Source: OCS155 cluster bacterium AG-422-J23
Lineage (GTDB): Bacteria > Actinomycetota > Acidimicrobiia > Actinomarinales > Actinomarinaceae
Assembly: GCA_003213625.1 (NCBI GenBank)
Contig: QCMT01000001.1
Span: 369,568-433,567 of the forward strand
Length of the DNA: 64,000 nucleotides
Direction of reading: 5' to 3'
Shown: one piece after another, positions 4,378 through 11,149 of the stretch
Position numbering within the stretch: the first letter of the stretch is position 1
Layout: each line of letters opens with the position of its first letter
The notes under the pieces: generated by a model
The model's database searches: none
Seen by the model: the letters and a program-made list of their open reading frames with translations, nothing else
What the model was told of the DNA's origin: nothing
Made by a program: the position numbers and the translations under genes

Positions 4378-5016
4378 TTAAATGTCTTTTAAATTATTCT
4401 TTTTCCATTCTTCAATTCTTTTATGATCGCCAGATAGCAAAACTTCAGGAACATTAAGTTTTTCATAAATTTCGGGTCTTGTATACACAGGAAAATCAGA
4501 TTTGTTGTTTATAAATGATTCATTTGTTAGAGATTCTGAATTCCCAAGAATTCCTGGAATTTTTCTTACTAGAGCTTCAATTAAAAACATCGCAGGAATC
4601 TCTCCGCCAGAAACAACCGTCTGTCCGATCGCAATTTCATAATCGCTGTGCATTTCGATTATTCTTTGATCAAAGCCTTCATATCTTCCACAAATAATAT
4701 TCGCTGATTCATATCCATGAAGATCTTGTATCAAATCTTCATTTAATTGTTGTCCGCTTGGTGTTAAGAAGATGTTGATATCTTTCTTTGATTCCTTAAT
4801 TGCATTATCTAAAGGCTCAACCATTAATACCATACCTGGTCCTCCACCGTATGGAGCGTCATCCACTTGTTTATAAGAACCAATGCCATAGTCTCTTAAA
4901 TTAGTGCTGCTAAATTCAAATAATTTTTCTTCAATACCATGGGAAAGAACGCCAACATTAATCCAATTTTGAAATATCTCAGGGAATAAAGTAATAACGT
5001 TAAAGTTTGATAACAT
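4378..5016 (-). CDS. trmD: tRNA (guanine37-N1)-methyltransferase
   Basis: SPOUT TrmD motifs (VITLFPEIF...GGGPGMVL). Confidence 0.95.
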   Translation of the reverse strand: MLSNFNVITLFPEIFQNWINVGVLSHGIEEKLFEFSSTNLRDYGIGSYKQVDDAPYGGGPGMVLMVEPLDNAIKESKKDINIFLTPSGQQLNEDLIQDLHGYESANIICGRYEGFDQRIIEMHSDYEIAIGQTVVSGGEIPAMFLIEALVRKIPGILGNSESLTNESFINNKSDFPVYTRPEIYEKLNVPEVLLSGDHKRIEEWKKNNLKDI

Positions 5017-6871
5017 TCTCTAAATTTGAAATTGCAGACAAGCTCTTTTTTTCTGTATAAAGAGTATTTCTTAAAAAAGGCTTCTTATTACTTTTCTCAA
5101 TAAGTTCAACAAATTCTATATCAGTTGTGTGCTGACCGTGATCAGCACCTGAAGCTCTACTAATATTTTCATTGATTAGTGTTCCACCAAGGTCATTTAC
5201 ACCTGCATGAAGTAGTTTTGAAGCACCATCGTGTCCCAGTTTTACCCAACTTGCCTGAATATTATCGATTAAACCGTAAAAATAAATTCTTGCAAGAGCA
5301 TGGATTAAAGTTACTTCATCCCAAGTAGGTCCTGGCATGCTTTTTCCTTGAAGAAAAATTGGCGAACCCATGTGAACAAAAGGCAATGGAACTATTTCAG
5401 TAAAGCCCATTGTTCTCTTTTGAATTCTTTTAATTAAATCAAAATGATTGACCCAAGATTTTACATCATCAATGTGACCAAACATAATTGTTGCAGTAGA
5501 TTTAATTTCTAAAGAATGGGCCACTTCCATAACATATCCCCATTGTTCAGATGTAATTTTATCTGGACATAAGTATTTTCTTATTCTGTTATCAAGTATT
5601 TCAGCTGCTGTCCCTGGTAGTGTATTTAATCCTGCATCCTTAAGTAGAGTTAGGTAATCTTCGACACTTAAATTTATAGTCTCAGCACCCTGCCAAATTT
5701 CTAAAGGAGTAAATCCATGTATATGTAAATCAGGTACTTCTTTTTTAATCTGTTTTACAAGTTCTAAATAAAATTTACCCGTGTACTCAGGATGAATACC
5801 CCCTTGCAAGCATACTTCAGAAGCTCCGTCTTTAAATGCTTCGACACTTCGTTTCACAACTTCTTGTGGCTCTAAATTGTATGGTTTTTCTTTGAGGTTA
5901 AGACTTTTTGGTCCTTTTGAGAATCCACAAAAGCCACACTTAAAATAGCATTGGTTTGTGTAGTTAATATTACGATTTTTAACAAAAGTTACATCATCTT
6001 TATTAATTGATCGATTTAAATTATCTGCAACTTCTGCGATTTTGTTTATGTACTTACCAGACGTTTTAAAAAGTTCTTCTAATTCATCATTACTAATCTC
6101 ATTTCCTTCTTGAGCTTTAGATAAGATTTTTTCAAAATTAGTTGATTTGAAGGAAGATGAAACGTTATATGTTAATCCATTTAGTTTAGGAATTTCCTTT
6201 CCAGAGCCTGGAGACCAATTTGTAGGAAATCGTTTATACCCTCTTACATCTCGTAATTGTAAAAAATTAGTAAATTGAATTTTTGATAGTAATTTTCGAG
6301 CTTTATTTACATCAACAAGAGAAAATAGTGTTCTCTCGAATAATTCAAAGTTTGAATTATTTTTTAATTCTTTTATCTCTTTATAACTCCAGTCTCTTAG
6401 CCAGAGATCTTGCACTCCTTTTGCCATAGATTCCTTTGCCTCCTCTATGGAGTTAACATATTTTGATATTTTAAAATTAAGTGAAGGTTGAATACTCTTT
6501 AGAAATTTTATGTTTTCTAAATCTGTTAGAAGTACAAAGGATGGATTTAATCGTGTAATTGCTTCAATATCATTTTCTAAATTATTAGAGGATCTATAAA
6601 CTATCCTATGGGAATCAACATCTTCAAATTCTTTCCAATTTTTGTAAGTTACAAACCATTGAAATGATTCATCAAGTTTGGTGTCTGAAATTGTTTGAAA
6701 ATCTTTTTTATGTATTTTTTCAAGATCAACTGGTTTGTCTATGTAAAAAGATGAAGTTCCCTCTTTTTTTCTTGAATTTAAATAAATTTCATTATCTGAA
6801 TCACACGGACGAATCCTCAGAAAAGATATGTTATTTTGTAAATTCATGTTCTTTTGGGTATCCATTTTCAT
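5000..6871 (-). CDS. cofH: FO synthase subunit 2 (CofH-like radical-SAM protein) with a roughly 240-aa N-terminal extension of unknown function
   Basis: Radical-SAM CxxxCxxC (CYFKCGFCGF) followed by a CofH-like body. Paired with cofG upstream. 623 aa against about 380 for a typical CofH. Confidence 0.7.
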   Translation of the reverse strand: MKMDTQKNMNLQNNISFLRIRPCDSDNEIYLNSRKKEGTSSFYIDKPVDLEKIHKKDFQTISDTKLDESFQWFVTYKNWKEFEDVDSHRIVYRSSNNLENDIEAITRLNPSFVLLTDLENIKFLKSIQPSLNFKISKYVNSIEEAKESMAKGVQDLWLRDWSYKEIKELKNNSNFELFERTLFSLVDVNKARKLLSKIQFTNFLQLRDVRGYKRFPTNWSPGSGKEIPKLNGLTYNVSSSFKSTNFEKILSKAQEGNEISNDELEELFKTSGKYINKIAEVADNLNRSINKDDVTFVKNRNINYTNQCYFKCGFCGFSKGPKSLNLKEKPYNLEPQEVVKRSVEAFKDGASEVCLQGGIHPEYTGKFYLELVKQIKKEVPDLHIHGFTPLEIWQGAETINLSVEDYLTLLKDAGLNTLPGTAAEILDNRIRKYLCPDKITSEQWGYVMEVAHSLEIKSTATIMFGHIDDVKSWVNHFDLIKRIQKRTMGFTEIVPLPFVHMGSPIFLQGKSMPGPTWDEVTLIHALARIYFYGLIDNIQASWVKLGHDGASKLLHAGVNDLGGTLINENISRASGADHGQHTTDIEFVELIEKSNKKPFLRNTLYTEKKSLSAISNLENVIKL

Positions 6872-7997
6872 TAACTACACTACTTACTTTTTCATAAATA
6901 CTTGGGCTTAACCAGTCTTTATTTATATACGAAGGATAGACAGGTAAACGAGGGATAAGATTTTGATCTGTTTTTTTAATTACACTTTTAAGTTCGATGA
7001 GATTTGGCCAATTATGATCTGGATTAACCCAATCAATTGTTTTTGGAGATATTCCTCCAAGATCATTTATTCCAGATTTTAAAAATAATTCAATATTGCT
7101 TGCTAAATTTGGAGGTATTTGTAAAGAAATGTGATTTGGCAAAAATAATCGTGTTGTTGCAATAATTCTCATAAATAGGTCGTTTACAATTTCTGAATGA
7201 TTCTTCATTAATGTATTTTGCTTGGCTCTGAAATTTTGAAGTATCACTTCCTGTATGGATGTATTAACTTCGCAGGTTTTAATAAGTTGATATATGTCTT
7301 GAATGATTTCATTTTTAGTATCAGTAATTCCTAACAATAGACCAGTGGTCATTGGATATTTTTCACTCATTGCATTTTCAAGAGTTTCTAATCTTAAGTT
7401 TATATCTTTAGTTTTTGCCCCATAATGTGCTTTACCTTTTTGAGATAAGTTTTTTGAAAAGGATTCAAGCATTAAGCCCCCAGATGGTGAATGTTGCCTG
7501 TATTCTTTAATTTCCTTTCTTGACATTAAACCAGGATTAATATGGGGAAATAAATGGTATTTCTCATTTACTCTTTTTGCATTTTCAATCAAGTAATCAA
7601 AAGTTGTACTAAAACCTAATCGTTCTAGCTCCTCTTTTGCAAAAGACCATTTAACTTCTGGTTTATCCCCGAGTGTAAAAAGAGCTTCAAAACATCCTGA
7701 TTTTTCTCCCACATTTGCTATCGCATCAACTTCTTCAAATGTAAGATAGGTACCTCCATCTTTGGGTGTTTTTACAAAAGTGCAATAAGCACAAGCGTCC
7801 TGACATAATGTTGTTAAAGGGATAAATACTTTAGGACTATAAGTAATTGTTTTACCAAAATTTTGAACTTTTATATCATAGGCCTTATCAAGTAACTCTG
7901 AAGTTGGAATGTTTCCAAAAATATAATTTTCAATTTTTTTATCTAAAGTAGACATAATTTTCAACAATTCGATAATATTATGATTTGATTGTACCAA
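6831..7997 (-). CDS. cofG: FO synthase subunit 1 (7,8-didemethyl-8-hydroxy-5-deazariboflavin synthase, CofG)
   Basis: Radical-SAM motif CQDACAYCTF and CofG-like length. Overlaps cofH by 41 nt in a different frame. Confidence 0.8.
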   Translation of the reverse strand: MVQSNHNIIELLKIMSTLDKKIENYIFGNIPTSELLDKAYDIKVQNFGKTITYSPKVFIPLTTLCQDACAYCTFVKTPKDGGTYLTFEEVDAIANVGEKSGCFEALFTLGDKPEVKWSFAKEELERLGFSTTFDYLIENAKRVNEKYHLFPHINPGLMSRKEIKEYRQHSPSGGLMLESFSKNLSQKGKAHYGAKTKDINLRLETLENAMSEKYPMTTGLLLGITDTKNEIIQDIYQLIKTCEVNTSIQEVILQNFRAKQNTLMKNHSEIVNDLFMRIIATTRLFLPNHISLQIPPNLASNIELFLKSGINDLGGISPKTIDWVNPDHNWPNLIELKSVIKKTDQNLIPRLPVYPSYINKDWLSPSIYEKVSSVVNENGYPKEHEFTK

Positions 7998-8032
7998 TAT
8001 TTTTGTAAAAAAACAGAAGTGAGGAATGGCAG

Positions 8033-9043
8033 TTGGTTAACGTATCTTTAGTTGGTTTCGGAAGAGTTGGAAGAGACATCTTTAGACAAACTCTTGAAGA
8101 AGACAATATAAATATCGTATCTGTATCTGATACTGCAGATAAAGATAATTTAATTTACTTACTTAAATACGATTCAATTTATGGAAAATTGCGTCATGAA
8201 GTAAATATCTCTGATGACACAATAACGGTTAATGGAAAAGAAACTATCTTTAATTCTTGGAAAAATGCAGATGAATCTGATTGGACGAGTCTAAATACAG
8301 ACATTGTCATATTAGCTACTGGTAAACCTCAAAATTTAGATGAAGCTCAAAGTCATATCTCTAAAGGTGCAAAGAAAGTATTTATAGCTTCAACTCCAGT
8401 TGATTTTTCAAATATTCCATTGCTCGTGTCTGGATGTAACGATGAATCTATCAGTTTGGAATCAGACATTATTTCTTTTGGCTCAAATACTGCAAATGCG
8501 GTTGGTCCCATTCTTAAAGTTATTGAGTCTGAGTATGGAATTAATGAAGTATTTTTAACAACGGTTCATGGATATTCAAATTCGAATCGTCTTGCTGATG
8601 TTGCGGGTGCTGGATTTAGAAAAAATCGAGCAGCTGGAGAAAATATCATTCCATCAGTTACTAATTCATCAAAAGTTATTGAGAGTGCATTACCAATGCT
8701 TAAAGATAAAATAGCTTCGTTTTCAATGACAGTACCCGTTCCAGATGGAAGTACGATCGATTTGACTTTGAATTTAAAAACTAAAACTTCTAAGGATGAG
8801 GTAAATAGTTACCTTGAGAAAGTAACCTCAGATAATTCGTTGAAAAATATTATTGGATTTACATATGATCCAATAGTTTCTTCAGATGTGGTTGGAAATT
8901 CTCTTTCTGGGTTAATTGATGGATTATCAACTATGTGTATTGATGAAGATAAATTAAAACTAATCATTTGGTTTGATAATGGATGGGGTTATGCCTCAAG
9001 AATCATTGAAGCCGTGAAATCATCGGAGGTACAATTTGAATAA
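8033..9043 (+). CDS. Glyceraldehyde-3-phosphate dehydrogenase-family paralogue lacking the catalytic cysteine (probable non-canonical enzyme or pseudoenzyme)
   Basis: NAD-binding GFGRVGR, TTVHGY and WFDNGWGY motifs are kept. The active-site S-C-T-T-N-C is replaced by SNTANAVGP (Cys149 to Asn, Cys153 to Ala). Confidence 0.75.
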   Translation: MVNVSLVGFGRVGRDIFRQTLEEDNINIVSVSDTADKDNLIYLLKYDSIYGKLRHEVNISDDTITVNGKETIFNSWKNADESDWTSLNTDIVILATGKPQNLDEAQSHISKGAKKVFIASTPVDFSNIPLLVSGCNDESISLESDIISFGSNTANAVGPILKVIESEYGINEVFLTTVHGYSNSNRLADVAGAGFRKNRAAGENIIPSVTNSSKVIESALPMLKDKIASFSMTVPVPDGSTIDLTLNLKTKTSKDEVNSYLEKVTSDNSLKNIIGFTYDPIVSSDVVGNSLSGLIDGLSTMCIDEDKLKLIIWFDNGWGYASRIIEAVKSSEVQFE

Positions 9044-10040
9044 TATTGGAATAAATGGCTTTGGAAGAATAGGTAGGTCTATTTTAAGAATAATTGTTGA
9101 ATCAAATTCAGATTTAAATGTAATTGCAATTAATGACCTAGGTGATAAGGAAACATTATCATATTTATTTAAACATGATTCAATAATGGGAATTTTAAAC
9201 ATGAATGTTGAATTAGAAGATGATTCCTTAATTGTTGGAGACAGAAAAATTAAATTAATATCCCACAGTGATCCTGGAGAGATTCCTTGGAGTGATTTAG
9301 GTGTTGATTTGGTCGTAGAATCAACTGGCTTTTTTAGAGATAAAGAGTCGTTAGATAAACATATCTCCTCAGGTGCAAAAAAAGTTGTCCTAACAGTACC
9401 CCCTAAAGATGAAATAGATGCAACAATAGTTTTAGGTGTAAACGACAATTCCTTAAATCCAGACGATAAGTTGATTTCTAATGCATCTTGTACGACTAAT
9501 TGTTTAGCTCCAATAGCAAAGGTATTAAATGACAACTTTAAAATTAAATCAGGATTGATGACAACCGTTCATGCTTATACAAATGATCAAGCGTTAGCAG
9601 AGACAACTCACAGTGATTTTAGAAGAGGAAGGAATGCAACACAAAATATAATTCCAACATCTACTGGTGCTGCAAAGGCTGTTGGTATGGTTCTTCCTGA
9701 ATTAAATGGAAAACTTGATGGAATGGCAATGAGAGTTCCTGTCCCGAATGGTAGTGTTGTAGACCTTGTTGTTGAGGTAGAGAAAGAAGTAACTATTGAT
9801 GACATAAATAATGCAGTAAAAAAAGCCTCTGAAAATGAACTTAAAGGAATTTTAGATTACTCAGATATTCCACTTGTTTCTACAGATATTCTCAAGAATC
9901 CTCATTCAAGTATTTATGATGCTTCATCAACACAAATACTAAATAACAACCATATCAAAGTAGTTTGCTGGTATGACAACGAATGGGGTTATTCAAATCG
10001 TGTTGTAGATTTACTTGAAAAATTATCAAAAGATGAATGA
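9036..10040 (+). CDS. gap: Glyceraldehyde-3-phosphate dehydrogenase, type I
   Basis: Canonical motifs INGFGRIGR, SNASCTTNCLAP, TTVHAYT, WYDNEWGYS. Confidence 0.9.
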   Translation: MNNIGINGFGRIGRSILRIIVESNSDLNVIAINDLGDKETLSYLFKHDSIMGILNMNVELEDDSLIVGDRKIKLISHSDPGEIPWSDLGVDLVVESTGFFRDKESLDKHISSGAKKVVLTVPPKDEIDATIVLGVNDNSLNPDDKLISNASCTTNCLAPIAKVLNDNFKIKSGLMTTVHAYTNDQALAETTHSDFRRGRNATQNIIPTSTGAAKAVGMVLPELNGKLDGMAMRVPVPNGSVVDLVVEVEKEVTIDDINNAVKKASENELKGILDYSDIPLVSTDILKNPHSSIYDASSTQILNNNHIKVVCWYDNEWGYSNRVVDLLEKLSKDE

Positions 10041-10452
10041 TAAATTGCCTGAGGCACCAAAAGCAGCTGGCAACTATGTAACAGTGAAAAAAATTGGTGA
10101 CTTTATATATACTTCAGGACATGTTCCGATAACTGACGAAAAGAAAATTATAGGCAAAATCCCTAATGAAATTTCTATAGAAGAAGGGTATGATGCAGCA
10201 TCATTATGTGCGGAACTTACTATTGCTTCACTTTTAACAATTTCAGATATAAAAAAATTGATTCCTGTAAATGTTTTAGGATTTGTAAATTCTTCATCGG
10301 ACTTTACAGATCAACCAAAAGTATTAAATGGGTTTACTGATAAATTAGATGAGTTCTTTTCGGAAAAACCAACAAGGTCTGCGGTGGGAGTTTCAAGTTT
10401 GCCACTTAATGTCTGTGTTGAAGTTCAATCTGTATTTTATATAAATGAATAA
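10033..10452 (+). CDS. RidA/YjgF-family reactive-intermediate deaminase
   Basis: C-terminal RidA signature (KPTRSAVGVSSLPLNVCVEV). Probable ATG at 10033, overlapping the gap stop. Confidence 0.7.
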   Translation: MNDKLPEAPKAAGNYVTVKKIGDFIYTSGHVPITDEKKIIGKIPNEISIEEGYDAASLCAELTIASLLTISDIKKLIPVNVLGFVNSSSDFTDQPKVLNGFTDKLDEFFSEKPTRSAVGVSSLPLNVCVEVQSVFYINE

Positions 10453-11149
10453 TTTTATAGTAGGAATTAGTACAGGGAATAAAGATGTAAAAATGTCTGC
10501 CGGTGAAATAGAATGCTCAGTTTTAAATTTTGATTTTATAAAACAATGTAACAATCATGGAGCACAAGTTAATATTATTCCGCAACAAAATAGGGAATCA
10601 ATTAATTTATCTGGTATAAACGCGCTCATAGTTACTGGTGGAGGTGATATAAATCCAAAAATGTATGACCAAAACCAAGATGATACTGTAGAAAGAGTGG
10701 ATGATTTACGTGATTCAACAGAATTTAACCTACTGAAAGAAGCAGAGAATAAAAATATTAGAACATTGGCTATATGTAGAGGCCATCAACTATTAAATGT
10801 TTACAAGGGTGGAACACTACATCAAGATCTAAAAAAAAGTGGTTTTAATGAAATTGAACATCAAAAACCTTATGATGACGCGAGAAGATATGTTCATAGA
10901 ATAAACATTGAAAAAGAAACAAAATTAGAAGGAATTGTCCAAGAAAACAATATTGAAGTTAATAGTATTCATCATCAAGGTATCGATAAATTAGGTGATG
11001 ATTTAATTATTTCTGCAAGATCTGAGGATGATGTTATCGAAGGAATTGAAATAACAAATGGCTGGGACGCAATTGGGATACAGTGGCATCCTGAATATTT
11101 AGATGATGAACCAACAAGTAATATATATGACTGGTTAATTAACAGTTAG
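10445..11149 (+). CDS. Class-I glutamine amidotransferase-like gamma-glutamyl hydrolase (PuuD / peptidase C26 family)
   Basis: Catalytic-triad context LAICRGHQLLNV ... GIQWHPE. Confidence 0.7.
   Translation: MNNFIVGISTGNKDVKMSAGEIECSVLNFDFIKQCNNHGAQVNIIPQQNRESINLSGINALIVTGGGDINPKMYDQNQDDTVERVDDLRDSTEFNLLKEAENKNIRTLAICRGHQLLNVYKGGTLHQDLKKSGFNEIEHQKPYDDARRYVHRINIEKETKLEGIVQENNIEVNSIHHQGIDKLGDDLIISARSEDDVIEGIEITNGWDAIGIQWHPEYLDDEPTSNIYDWLINS

What the first reader, a model, noticed from the sequence alone, without database searches (positions are those of the whole stretch)
8033..10040. Tandem GAPDH genes: a catalytic-cysteine-less paralogue overlaps the start of the canonical gap
The upstream 336-aa paralogue keeps the NAD-binding GFGRVGR, the His of TTVHGY and the C-terminal WFDNGWGY. 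The catalytic S-C-T-T-N-C segment is SNTANAVGP, so both Cys149 and Cys153 equivalents are lost. The phosphate-site TGAAKA segment is also altered (VTNSSKV). Its stop overlaps the canonical gap start by 8 nt, implying co-expression. This looks like a dedicated pseudoenzyme or repurposed GAPDH-fold protein (regulatory hetero-oligomer partner, or binding protein), not an E4P dehydrogenase, which retains the Cys.
Basis: seen in the sequence. Interest (0 to 1): 0.6.

Follow-up and report, generated by a model that had tools for sequence, protein, structure and literature searches.

The report
Cysteine-less GAPDH paralogue coupled to gap
Just upstream of its normal glycolytic GAPDH gene, this marine actinobacterium (Candidatus Actinomarina) carries a strongly conserved second GAPDH-like gene that has lost the catalytic cysteine and both substrate-phosphate arginines, and similar paired genes occur in several other bacterial phyla and appear undescribed.

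Summary
Window 8033-9043 (+) encodes a 336-aa type I GAPDH-fold protein, here called GapX. It reads S-N-T-A-N-A where GAPDH has S-C-T-T-N-C. It keeps GFGRVGR, Asp32, His176 and Asn313. Its TAA stop overlaps the TTG start of a fully canonical gap (9036-10040) by 8 nt.

This is not an error or a decaying gene. Asn149 is invariant in 120 + 120 database clusters and 80 genome loci across the class Acidimicrobiia. dN/dS is 0.04-0.12, against 0.03-0.08 for gap. In all 86 junctions measured the two genes overlap or lie at most 2 nt apart, apart from two outlying start calls.

GapX belongs to a wider clade (NJ bootstrap 94) found in Acidobacteriota, Marinimicrobia, a worm-symbiont proteobacterium and others. 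Members examined always sit directly upstream of a canonical gap. All lack Arg231 and have a remodelled 208-211 loop. Many keep Cys149, but it was lost at least five times (to N, S, V, I, A, G or P).

Best reading: a non-catalytic, probably NAD(H)-binding partner of Gap. Physical interaction is untested. No description was found in the searchable literature.

The parts
8033..9043 (+). gapX: 336-aa type I GAPDH-fold paralogue lacking Cys149, Cys153, Arg195, Arg231 and Gly209 (TTG start, TAA stop)
   Evidence: ORF and translation. Pfam Gp_dh_N and Gp_dh_C. TIGR01534 scores 283.5 bits, below its cutoff of 367.2. AF2 model pLDDT 88, pTM 0.88. Foldseek top hits are type I GAPDHs with TM 0.86-0.89.
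8021..8025 (+). Shine-Dalgarno-like GAGGA, 7 nt before the gapX TTG start
   Evidence: Read from the sequence. Function is inferred.
8054..8074 (+). Codons for GFGRVGR (residues 8-14), the dinucleotide-binding glycine motif, retained
   Evidence: G7, G9 and R10 are 100% conserved in 81 Acidimicrobiia GapX sequences.
8483..8500 (+). Codons for S-N-T-A-N-A (residues 151-156), replacing the S-C-T-T-N-C active-site segment. AAT at 8486-8488 is Asn at GAPDH position 149.
   Evidence: Asn is invariant in all Acidimicrobiia sequences examined.
8567..8569 (+). CAT codon for His179 (GAPDH His176), retained
   Evidence: 100% His.
8618..8632 (+). Codons for R-K-N-R-A (GAPDH positions 194-198). Arg194 and Arg197 are kept. 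Arg195 (Ps site) is replaced by Lys.
   Evidence: position 195 is L, K, Q or N in Actinomarinales and S, T, L or M in other Acidimicrobiia, against R in 100% of partner Gap.
8660..8671 (+). Codons for T-N-S-S (GAPDH 208-211, the T-G-A-A phosphate loop), remodelled
   Evidence: T208 is kept; G209 becomes N or K; A210 becomes S; A211 becomes S or P.
8729..8731 (+). ACA codon for Thr233 at GAPDH position 231 (Arg231 lost)
   Evidence: T in 100% of Actinomarinales, N in 100% of other Acidimicrobiia.
9025..9030 (+). GGAGGT Shine-Dalgarno for gap, lying inside the 3' end of gapX
   Evidence: SD-like GGAGG is visible at the same place in the distant loci printed.
9036..9043 (+). 8-nt overlap TTGAATAA: gap start TTG (9036-9038) and gapX stop TAA (9041-9043)
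   Evidence: Spacing over 86 junctions: -8 nt (26), -4 (28), -1 (5), 0 (18), +2 (7); two outliers at -17 and +26 depend on the start call.
9036..10040 (+). gap: canonical type I GAPDH, 334 aa, with Cys149, Cys153, His176, Arg195, TGAAKA and Arg231 all present
   Evidence: TIGR01534 scores 441.6 bits, above its cutoff of 367.2. Site table.
10015..11149 (+). Downstream RidA/YjgF-family gene (10015-10452) and peptidase C26 / class-I glutamine amidotransferase-like gene (10445-11149). Each overlaps the gene before it. They are co-operonic in Actinomarinales only and are not part of the conserved module.
   Evidence: Synteny is conserved in 52 Actinomarinales loci but not in other Acidimicrobiia.

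Best explanation
GapX is a conserved, expressed GAPDH-fold paralogue that can no longer carry out phosphorylating oxidation of glyceraldehyde-3-phosphate. The thiol nucleophile, both arginines of the substrate-phosphate site and the glycine of the phosphate loop are gone. The dinucleotide-binding residues, His176 and the S-loop are kept. It is translated from the same mRNA as the canonical Gap, immediately before it, through an overlapping stop/start. I infer that it works together with Gap as a non-catalytic, NAD(H)-binding partner. The most likely form is a subunit of mixed GapX/Gap tetramers, or a Gap-binding modulator, analogous to dead-paralogue 'prozyme' subunits.

Shown here: loss of catalytic and phosphate-binding residues; retention of NAD-site residues; strong purifying selection; strict, tightly coupled gene pairing over large evolutionary distances; repeated independent loss of Cys149 within the clade.

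Inferred: NAD(H) binding, co-translation and physical association with Gap.
For: 1. Active-site state. C149 is Asn in 100% of sequences; C153 is Ala; R195 is K, L, S, T or Q; R231 is T or N; G209 is N or K. G7, G9, R10, D32, T96, N313, Y317, S148, T150, H176, R194, R197 and T208 are 98-100% conserved in Actinomarinales GapX; in the other Acidimicrobiia T96 is 72% conserved.
2. Purifying selection. NG86 dN/dS is 0.04-0.12 for gapX and 0.03-0.08 for gap, excluding the nearly identical pair L010/L012 (0.38 and 0.19).
3. Pairing. All 76 genome loci that reach far enough have gapX followed by gap. Junction spacing is -8, -4, -1, 0 or +2 nt in 84 of 86 junctions.
4. The same arrangement occurs outside Acidimicrobiia. 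Five of six non-Acidimicrobiia relatives looked up sit directly upstream of a canonical gap: P0126, P0128, P0131, P0146 (Cys-less) and P0276, P0371 (Cys kept). The contig of P0159 ends right after the gene.
5. The R231-less proteins form one clade (bootstrap 94), placed next to the clade of partner Gaps. Cys149 was lost at least 5 times within it, to N, S, V, I, A, G or P. The replacements are chemically unrelated, so they are not substitute nucleophiles.
6. Fold is intact: pLDDT 88, TM 0.86-0.89 to GAPDH structures.
7. Precedents for dead paralogues that act with their active counterparts: the AdoMetDC prozyme (PMC6221367) and PDX1.2 (PMC6829848).
Against: No direct evidence of GapX-Gap contact exists. 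The apparent natural fusions turned out to be frameshifted read-throughs.

The substituted active-site residues are themselves strictly conserved (Asn149, Ala153, Ser210, Asn/Thr231, Gly314). A pure scaffold would not need this, and it hints at a specific ligand or reaction in the pocket.

Many clade members keep Cys149, His176, Thr179 and Arg195 and may be real enzymes. The family's primary role could therefore be catalytic and independent of Gap.

Tight gene coupling also occurs between consecutive enzymes that do not form complexes.

Trees are neighbour-joining only. Expression was not measured.
Confidence: 0.5

Rival explanations
1. GapX is a repurposed enzyme. It uses NAD(H) and His176 for chemistry that needs no thioacyl intermediate, such as direct hydride transfer from a hydrated aldehyde, hemiacetal or alcohol, on a substrate without a phosphate group. 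It sits next to gap for metabolic reasons only.
For: The substituted pocket residues are invariant over about 42% sequence divergence: Asn149, Ser148, Thr150, His176, Thr208, Ser210, Asn/Thr231, Gly314. The pocket remodelling (R231N, 209-211 loop, E314G) predates Cys loss and is shared with Cys-retaining relatives that look catalytically competent. NAD-site residues are retained. From my own recollection, not checked here: engineered C149A GAPDH was reported to retain a low Cys-independent oxidoreductase activity (Corbier et al. 1992).
Against: Position 149 is N, S, V, I, A, G or P in different lineages that share the same gene arrangement, so no common replacement catalytic group exists. No pathway genes apart from gap are conserved next to it. 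Acidimicrobiia GapX also lost Arg195 and Asp181.
Confidence: 0.3
2. GapX is a ligand sensor or moonlighting binder, for example of NAD(H), a metabolite or a nucleic acid. It acts independently of Gap, and the pairing is a historical remnant of a tandem duplication.
For: NAD-site conservation. The trypanosome GAPDH-like protein is an inactive homologue with a conserved cofactor region and a non-glycolytic, structural location (PMC4106842).
Against: A remnant arrangement would be expected to break up. Instead, order, orientation and a spacing of 2 nt or less persist across several phyla and from 31% to 69% GC.
Confidence: 0.12
3. GapX is still a working phosphorylating GAPDH that uses another nucleophile.
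For: The overall fold, His176 and the NAD site are intact.
Against: There is no Cys or Ser at position 149. Asn is not a nucleophile for thio- or oxy-ester catalysis. Arg195, Arg231 and Gly209 are also lost. The score is below the TIGR01534 cutoff. A complete canonical Gap is encoded next door.
Confidence: 0.03
4. The Cys-less state is a sequencing or assembly error, or the gene is a decaying pseudogene.
For: None beyond the unusual residues. A few database entries of relatives are frameshifted.
Against: The motif is identical in hundreds of independent single-cell genomes, MAGs and metagenome contigs. The ORFs are intact. dN/dS is about 0.04-0.12. The gene is retained in about 1-Mb streamlined genomes (contigs of 0.9-1.0 Mb).
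Confidence: 0.01

Closest known systems
Canonical type I phosphorylating GAPDH (for example Geobacillus stearothermophilus GapA, PDB 1GD1; Bacillus subtilis GapB, 8WWZ)
   Same: Same two-domain fold (TM 0.86-0.89, 34-38% identity). Same GxGxxG, Asp32 and Asn313 NAD-site residues, His176 and S-loop.
   Different: Cys149, Cys153, Arg195, Arg231, Gly209, Ala210/211 and Glu314 are replaced. It scores below the TIGR01534 cutoff.
Engineered C149A / C149S GAPDH mutants (PDB 1NPT, 1NQ5)
   Same: They are the best sequence and structure matches in the PDB, and they lack the nucleophile.
   Different: They are laboratory mutants that keep the phosphate sites. GapX is a natural, selected protein with Asn at 149 and no Ps-site arginines.
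Trypanosomatid GAPDH-like protein TbGAPDHL (PMC4106842)
   Same: A natural GAPDH homologue predicted to be inactive, with the glycine-rich cofactor region conserved.
   Different: It is eukaryotic, flagellar and structural, poorly conserved between species, and not linked to an active paralogue. GapX is bacterial, strongly conserved and gene-coupled to gap.
Dead-paralogue partner subunits: trypanosome AdoMetDC prozyme (PMC6221367) and plant PDX1.2 (PMC6829848)
   Same: A catalytically dead duplicate maintained by selection that acts through hetero-oligomers with the active paralogue. This is the mechanism proposed here.
   Different: They are unrelated folds, and for GapX the interaction is not demonstrated.
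Plant chloroplast GapA/GapB A2B2 GAPDH (from general knowledge, not tested here)
   Same: A hetero-tetramer built from two GAPDH paralogues, one of which carries a regulatory feature.
   Different: Both plant subunits are catalytic and keep Cys149.
Erythrose-4-phosphate dehydrogenase (Epd; TIGR01532 / NF010058)
   Same: A divergent GAPDH paralogue with altered function.
   Different: Epd keeps the catalytic Cys. GapX scores 205 and 213 bits against cutoffs of 530 and 539.

Membership tests
Type I phosphorylating GAPDH (EC 1.2.1.12; TIGR01534) | Gp_dh_N + Gp_dh_C architecture and GAPDH fold | tested here: met
   Pfam E-values 5.8e-24 and 5.3e-38. AF2 pLDDT 88. Foldseek TM 0.86-0.89 to GAPDH structures.
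Type I phosphorylating GAPDH (EC 1.2.1.12; TIGR01534) | Score at or above the curated equivalog cutoff | tested here: not met
   283.5 bits against a cutoff of 367.2. The neighbouring gap scores 441.6.
Type I phosphorylating GAPDH (EC 1.2.1.12; TIGR01534) | Catalytic nucleophile Cys149 | tested here: not met
   Asn in the window and in every Acidimicrobiia homologue examined.
Type I phosphorylating GAPDH (EC 1.2.1.12; TIGR01534) | General base His176 | tested here: met
   His179 in the window protein; 100% conserved.
Type I phosphorylating GAPDH (EC 1.2.1.12; TIGR01534) | Substrate-phosphate (Ps) site Arg195 + Arg231 (with Thr179, Asp181) | tested here: not met
   Position 195 is Lys, 231 is Thr, 181 is Ser and 179 is Ser in the window protein.
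Type I phosphorylating GAPDH (EC 1.2.1.12; TIGR01534) | Inorganic-phosphate (Pi) loop Thr208-Gly209-Ala210 | tested here: not met
   The loop reads T-N-S-S. Thr208 is kept, Gly209 is Asn and Ala210 is Ser.
Type I phosphorylating GAPDH (EC 1.2.1.12; TIGR01534) | NAD-binding residues (GxGxxG, Asp32, Asn313, Tyr317) | tested here: met
   All are present and 98-100% conserved. Actual binding was not measured.
Erythrose-4-phosphate dehydrogenase (TIGR01532 / NF010058) | Score above cutoff, and catalytic Cys | tested here: not met
   205.2 and 212.8 bits against cutoffs of 530.55 and 539. No Cys.
'GapX' clade (provisional name, defined here) | GAPDH paralogue lacking Arg231, with a remodelled 209-211 loop and Glu314Gly, encoded directly upstream of a canonical gap | tested here: met
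   Site table. Clade bootstrap 94. Gene order and spacing.
Pseudoenzyme partner subunit (prozyme-like) | Loss of catalytic residues with maintained purifying selection | tested here: met
Pseudoenzyme partner subunit (prozyme-like) | Physical and functional association with the active paralogue | not testable with these tools
   Only gene coupling is available. No multimer prediction or experiment was possible. The putative fusions were rejected.

The most novel reading that the evidence does not exclude
GapX-Gap is an ancient, widespread and so far unrecognised two-gene GAPDH module, present in Acidimicrobiia, Acidobacteriota, Marinimicrobia, a symbiont proteobacterium and Eisenbacteria. Its products assemble into mixed tetramers. 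The upstream subunit first lost its phosphate-site arginine and then, at least five separate times, its catalytic cysteine. It became a dedicated non-catalytic NAD(H)-binding subunit that tunes or protects the glycolytic enzyme, including in some of the most abundant actinobacteria of the surface ocean.
Probability: 0.35. Interest if true: 0.75.

Novelty: new variant of a known kind. Interest (0 to 1): 0.64.

Why it matters
GAPDH is among the best-studied enzymes, and its Cys149/His176/Arg195/Arg231 site is treated as essentially universal in type I enzymes. Here a naturally selected type I paralogue lacks the cysteine and both arginines. It is kept under strong constraint in an extremely streamlined, ecologically dominant marine lineage and is always translationally coupled to the real gap.

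That implies a non-canonical role for the GAPDH fold in central carbon metabolism that current annotation hides. NCBI names seen here include 'type I glyceraldehyde-3-phosphate dehydrogenase' and 'hypothetical protein'.

The wider clade has Cys-bearing and repeatedly Cys-less members in the same gene arrangement. This gives a natural series for studying how an enzyme subunit turns into a pseudoenzyme. It also means metabolic reconstructions that count these genes as a second GAPDH are probably wrong.

Tried and rejected
1. Natural GapX-Gap fusions as evidence of interaction. P0270 (673 aa), P0327 and P0271 looked like fusions. Inspection showed the GapX C-terminal half is out of frame: the WYDAGWGY...stop reading is in another frame. 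They are frameshifted read-throughs or assembly errors. P0279 is a 5'-truncated in-frame read-through of uncertain reality. None was used as evidence.
2. The first NJ tree, with uncorrected BLOSUM distances, placed Actinomarinales GapX with unrelated Cys-bearing proteins. After L-INS-i realignment, Kimura correction and bootstrapping, Acidimicrobiia GapX is monophyletic at 98%. The first placement was treated as long-branch attraction.
3. A pathway clue from neighbouring genes led nowhere. In the window gapX-gap is flanked by cofH/cofG, trmD, a RidA-like gene, a C26 amidotransferase-like gene, rimM, upp, deoB, PNP, etfBA and smc. In other Acidimicrobiia and other phyla the neighbours differ. 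Only gap is constant, and there is no pgk or tpiA next to it.
4. Six literature searches found no description of a bacterial Cys-less GAPDH paralogue or of the tandem module.
5. The PDB holds no natural Cys-less close relative.
6. There are no Rfam or tRNA features in the window. The promoter and terminator scans were no better than shuffled sequence.
7. A search for a cultured host of the Acidimicrobiia form returned only MAG and SAG names.
8. E4P dehydrogenase and ArsJ-associated GAPDH were rejected on score and residues.
Full report
**Observation**

The window holds two adjacent GAPDH-family ORFs on the + strand.
- ORF 8033-9043 has a TTG start with GAGGA 7 nt upstream and encodes 336 aa.
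- ORF 9036-10040 has a TTG start with GGAGGT at 9025-9030 and encodes 334 aa.
- The two proteins are 35% identical over 330 residues (E 2e-76).
- Both have the Pfam Gp_dh_N and Gp_dh_C domains.

The downstream protein is canonical. It has SCTTNCL, TTVHAY, FRRGR, TGAAKA, MRVPVP and WYDNEWGY. It passes the NCBIfam type I GAPDH equivalog cutoff (441.6 against 367.2 bits).

The upstream protein, which I call GapX, keeps GFGRVGR, Asp32, His (TTVHGY) and WFDNGWGY. It reads G-S-N-T-A-N-A where GAPDH has the active-site segment, and VTNSSKV for the phosphate loop. Its TAA stop (9041-9043) overlaps the gap TTG start (9036-9038) by 8 nt.

Both arginines of the substrate-phosphate (Ps) site are gone: Arg195 is Lys and Arg231 is Thr. 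Asp181 is Ser and Glu314 is Gly. GapX scores below the cutoffs of every NCBIfam GAPDH and E4PD model (283.5 against 367.2 for TIGR01534; 205 against 530 for E4PD).

**Organism, and whether the feature is real**

A scan of one genome per GTDB species gave 80 loci. Loci at 93-98% identity are single-cell genomes and MAGs of Candidatus Actinomarina (the OCS155 marine actinobacteria, class Acidimicrobiia). Identity falls through Actinomarinales (58-77%) to other Acidimicrobiia from sediment, sand and saline sites (41-46%).
- All 120 nearest database clusters carry GSNT[A/T][N/I]A.
- A second search seeded with a 66%-GC Acidimicrobiia homologue gave 120 more clusters. All have S-N-T at 148-150 (one S-N-S), His176, a non-Arg at 195 and Asn at 231.
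- Pairwise NG86 dN/dS for gapX is 0.04-0.12, against 0.03-0.08 for the adjacent gap in the same genome pairs. The nearly identical pair L010/L012 is an outlier at 0.38 and 0.19.

Sequencing error and pseudogene decay are excluded. The gene is kept under strong purifying selection, only about 1.5-2 times more relaxed than gap, in genomes of about 1 Mb.

**Anatomy of the family** (56 Actinomarinales and 25 other Acidimicrobiia GapX sequences)
- Invariant or nearly so in Actinomarinales: G7, G9, R10, D32, T96, S148, T150, H176, R194, R197, T208, W310, D312, N313 and Y317. In the other Acidimicrobiia T96 is 72% conserved.
- Consistently replaced: C149 to N (100%); C153 to A (100%); R195 to L, K, Q or N, or to S, T, L or M; D181 variable; G209 to K, N or S; A210 to S; A211 to S or P; R231 to T (Actinomarinales) or N (others); E314 to G.
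- The 80 partner Gap proteins keep every canonical residue at 98-100%.

An AlphaFold2 model built from an 86-sequence alignment is confident (pLDDT 88, pTM 0.88). The exception is the S-loop (residues 182-205, pLDDT below 50), which in GAPDH is ordered by inter-subunit and NAD contacts. Foldseek returns only type I GAPDHs, with TM 0.86-0.89. The top hits are the engineered C149A mutant 1NPT and B. subtilis GapB. No natural Cys-less relative is in the PDB.

**Gene pairing**

In all 76 of the 80 genome loci that extend far enough, gapX is immediately followed by a canonical gap on the same strand. I measured the junction in 86 loci, including non-Acidimicrobiia ones.
- The gap start lies -8 nt (26 loci), -4 nt (28), -1 nt (5), 0 nt (18) or +2 nt (7) from the end of the gapX stop.
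- Two outliers (-17 and +26) depend on which start codon is called.
- A GGAGG-like element lies inside the gapX 3' end in the loci printed.

This is the geometry of translational coupling. It is maintained from 31% to 69% GC. Nothing else in the neighbourhood is conserved beyond Actinomarinales. There the block trmD-cofH-cofG, then divergently gapX-gap-RidA-like-C26 amidotransferase-like, then rimM, is fully syntenic. Other Acidimicrobiia have unrelated neighbours. No pgk or tpiA is adjacent.

**A wider clade**

An exhaustive search of 1.84 billion cluster representatives showed the GSNT type in only a few 50%-identity clusters. It also revealed other Cys-less GAPDH-like proteins, with S, V, A, P or G at position 149.

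Context look-ups:
- P0126 is Ser149, from 33%-GC DNA; a 97%-identical cluster is named Candidatus Marinimicrobia.
- P0128 is Val149 (54-56% GC), P0131 is Ala149 (68% GC) and P0146 is Ser149 (44% GC).
- Each of these four lies directly upstream of a canonical gap.
- The contig of P0159 (Val149) ends just after the gene.

A profile of these proteins retrieved a large set of 333-347-aa proteins.
- They retain Cys149, His176, Thr179 and Arg195.
- They share the GapX signature: Arg231 to Asn or Cys; Gly209 to Trp, His or Asn; Ala210 to Ser; Ala211 to Pro; Glu314 to Gly; and often Cys153 to Ala.
- Source names place them in Acidobacteriota (Terriglobia, Polarisedimenticolaceae), Candidatus Eisenbacteria and an Olavius-associated proteobacterium.
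- The two looked up (P0276, P0371) are again directly upstream of a canonical gap.

Kimura-corrected NJ trees with 100 bootstraps give these results.
- All Arg231-less proteins except one unrelated outlier (P0211) form one clade (94%), placed next to the clade that contains the partner Gaps.
- Acidimicrobiia GapX is monophyletic (98%).
- Cys-bearing and Cys-less members are interleaved.
- Fitch parsimony needs at least 6 changes at position 149 over the tree, so at least 5 inside the clade.
- A less-derived tandem also exists. P0165 keeps Cys149, Arg195 and Arg231, has Gly209Ser, and is followed by another gap. Its relative P0160 is solitary.

**Interpretation**

The data show an old tandem duplication of gap. 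The upstream copy first lost Arg231 and remodelled the phosphate loop. In several lineages it then lost the nucleophile. In Acidimicrobiia it also lost Arg195 and Asp181.

The residues that replace Cys149 are chemically unrelated (N, S, V, I, A, G, P) in proteins sharing the same gene arrangement. None of them can be a substitute nucleophile. The function that keeps the protein under selection therefore cannot depend on thioacyl catalysis.

What stays constant is the fold, the dinucleotide-site residues, His176, the S-loop and the coupled position in front of gap. I therefore favour (about 0.5) a non-catalytic, NAD(H)-binding partner of Gap. This would most simply be a subunit of mixed tetramers, by analogy with the AdoMetDC prozyme (PMC6221367) and PDX1.2 (PMC6829848).

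The main rival (about 0.3) is a repurposed NAD-linked enzyme or specific ligand binder. Its support is that the substituted pocket residues (Asn149, Ser210, Asn/Thr231, Gly314) are themselves invariant across the class, which a mere scaffold would not require. The two ideas are not exclusive: a regulatory subunit could sense a ligand in the old active site.

An active GAPDH with another nucleophile (0.03) and an artefact or pseudogene (0.01) are effectively excluded.

**Comparison with what is known, and novelty**

GapX has the type I GAPDH fold and descent. It fails the defining catalytic features (Cys149, Arg195, Arg231, Pi loop, curated score). It should not be filed as a GAPDH or as Epd.

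The nearest natural precedent for an inactive GAPDH homologue is the trypanosomatid flagellar GAPDH-like protein (PMC4106842). That protein is eukaryotic, poorly conserved and not linked to an active paralogue. A 2025 review of the GapDH superfamily treats the Cys as essential in most members (PMC12041015).

Six full-text searches found no account of this bacterial family or of the tandem module. The library lacks most subscription journals, so absence of a report is not proof. Public annotations seen call these proteins 'type I glyceraldehyde-3-phosphate dehydrogenase', 'NAD-binding domain-containing protein' or 'hypothetical protein'. I rate it a new variant of a known kind: a GAPDH paralogue turned pseudoenzyme or partner.

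**Limits**
- There is no expression or interaction data.
- Trees are distance-based.
- The taxonomic range outside Acidimicrobiia rests on a handful of named MAGs.
- The putative fusions were artefacts.
- Only one genome per species was scanned, and only the best 80 of 279 matches were kept.

Noticed in passing
window 5000-6871 (-) and 6831-7997 (-): FO synthase genes cofH and cofG lie divergently upstream of gapX, only 35 nt from its start, and overlap each other by 41 nt. The CofH ORF is 623 aa, with the CofH domain at residues about 239-609. That leaves an N-terminal extension of about 240 aa with no family match.
   Followed up: no
L068, L072, L078, L079 (distant Acidimicrobiia loci): cofG, with or without cofH, also lies divergently upstream of gapX in 4 of 25 non-Actinomarinales Acidimicrobiia loci (41-46% identity). 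The cofGH / gapX adjacency is therefore older than Actinomarinales. Whether this is ancestral synteny or a functional link to FO/F420 is unknown.
   Followed up: partly
window 10015-10452 and 10445-11149 (+): A RidA/YjgF-family gene and a peptidase C26 / class-I glutamine amidotransferase-like gene follow gap, with overlaps of 26 nt and 8 nt. This gives a four-gene overlapping string, gapX-gap-ridA-like-C26, conserved in 52 Actinomarinales loci.
   Followed up: partly
P0183, P0202, P0206, P0210, P0212, P0231, P0239, P0243, P0249, P0268: A group of roughly 800-930-aa proteins has an N-terminal GAPDH-like domain reading C-A-S-S-T-L-Y-C (Ser at position 149; Arg231 and T-G-A-C-K kept), followed by about 500 extra residues. 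Taxon and function are unknown.
   Followed up: no
L094-L096 (P0165): Another tandem pair of GAPDH genes. The upstream copy keeps Cys149, Arg195 and Arg231 but has Gly209Ser and T-S-A-G-K. It may be a less-derived stage of the same kind of tandem, or an independent duplication.
   Followed up: partly
P0139 and relatives (420 aa): A Ser149 GapX-like group carries an N-terminal extension of about 85 aa rich in K, R and N (MNRSEIFTTLLEKRPWTDYEWEKRT...). It could be a real extra domain or a mis-called start.
   Followed up: no
L091 (P0270), P0327, P0271: Several database 'fusion' proteins of GapX and Gap are frameshifted within the GapX C-terminal domain. They are assembly errors or true pseudogenisation of gapX in those genomes. 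If real, gapX can be lost while gap stays intact.
   Followed up: partly
L018, L066, L080: Contigs carrying Actinomarina-type or Acidimicrobiia-type gapX-gap are filed under MAGs named Methanobacteriota archaeon and Gammaproteobacteria. These are probably mis-binned contigs.
   Followed up: no
window 1-64000: No tRNA genes and no Rfam family at gathering score were found in the whole 64-kb window. Many ORFs in the region have TTG as the first possible start.
   Followed up: no
window 9020-9535 (-): A 171-aa antisense ORF lies entirely inside gap. It is most likely a spurious ORF of the AT-rich sequence.
   Followed up: no
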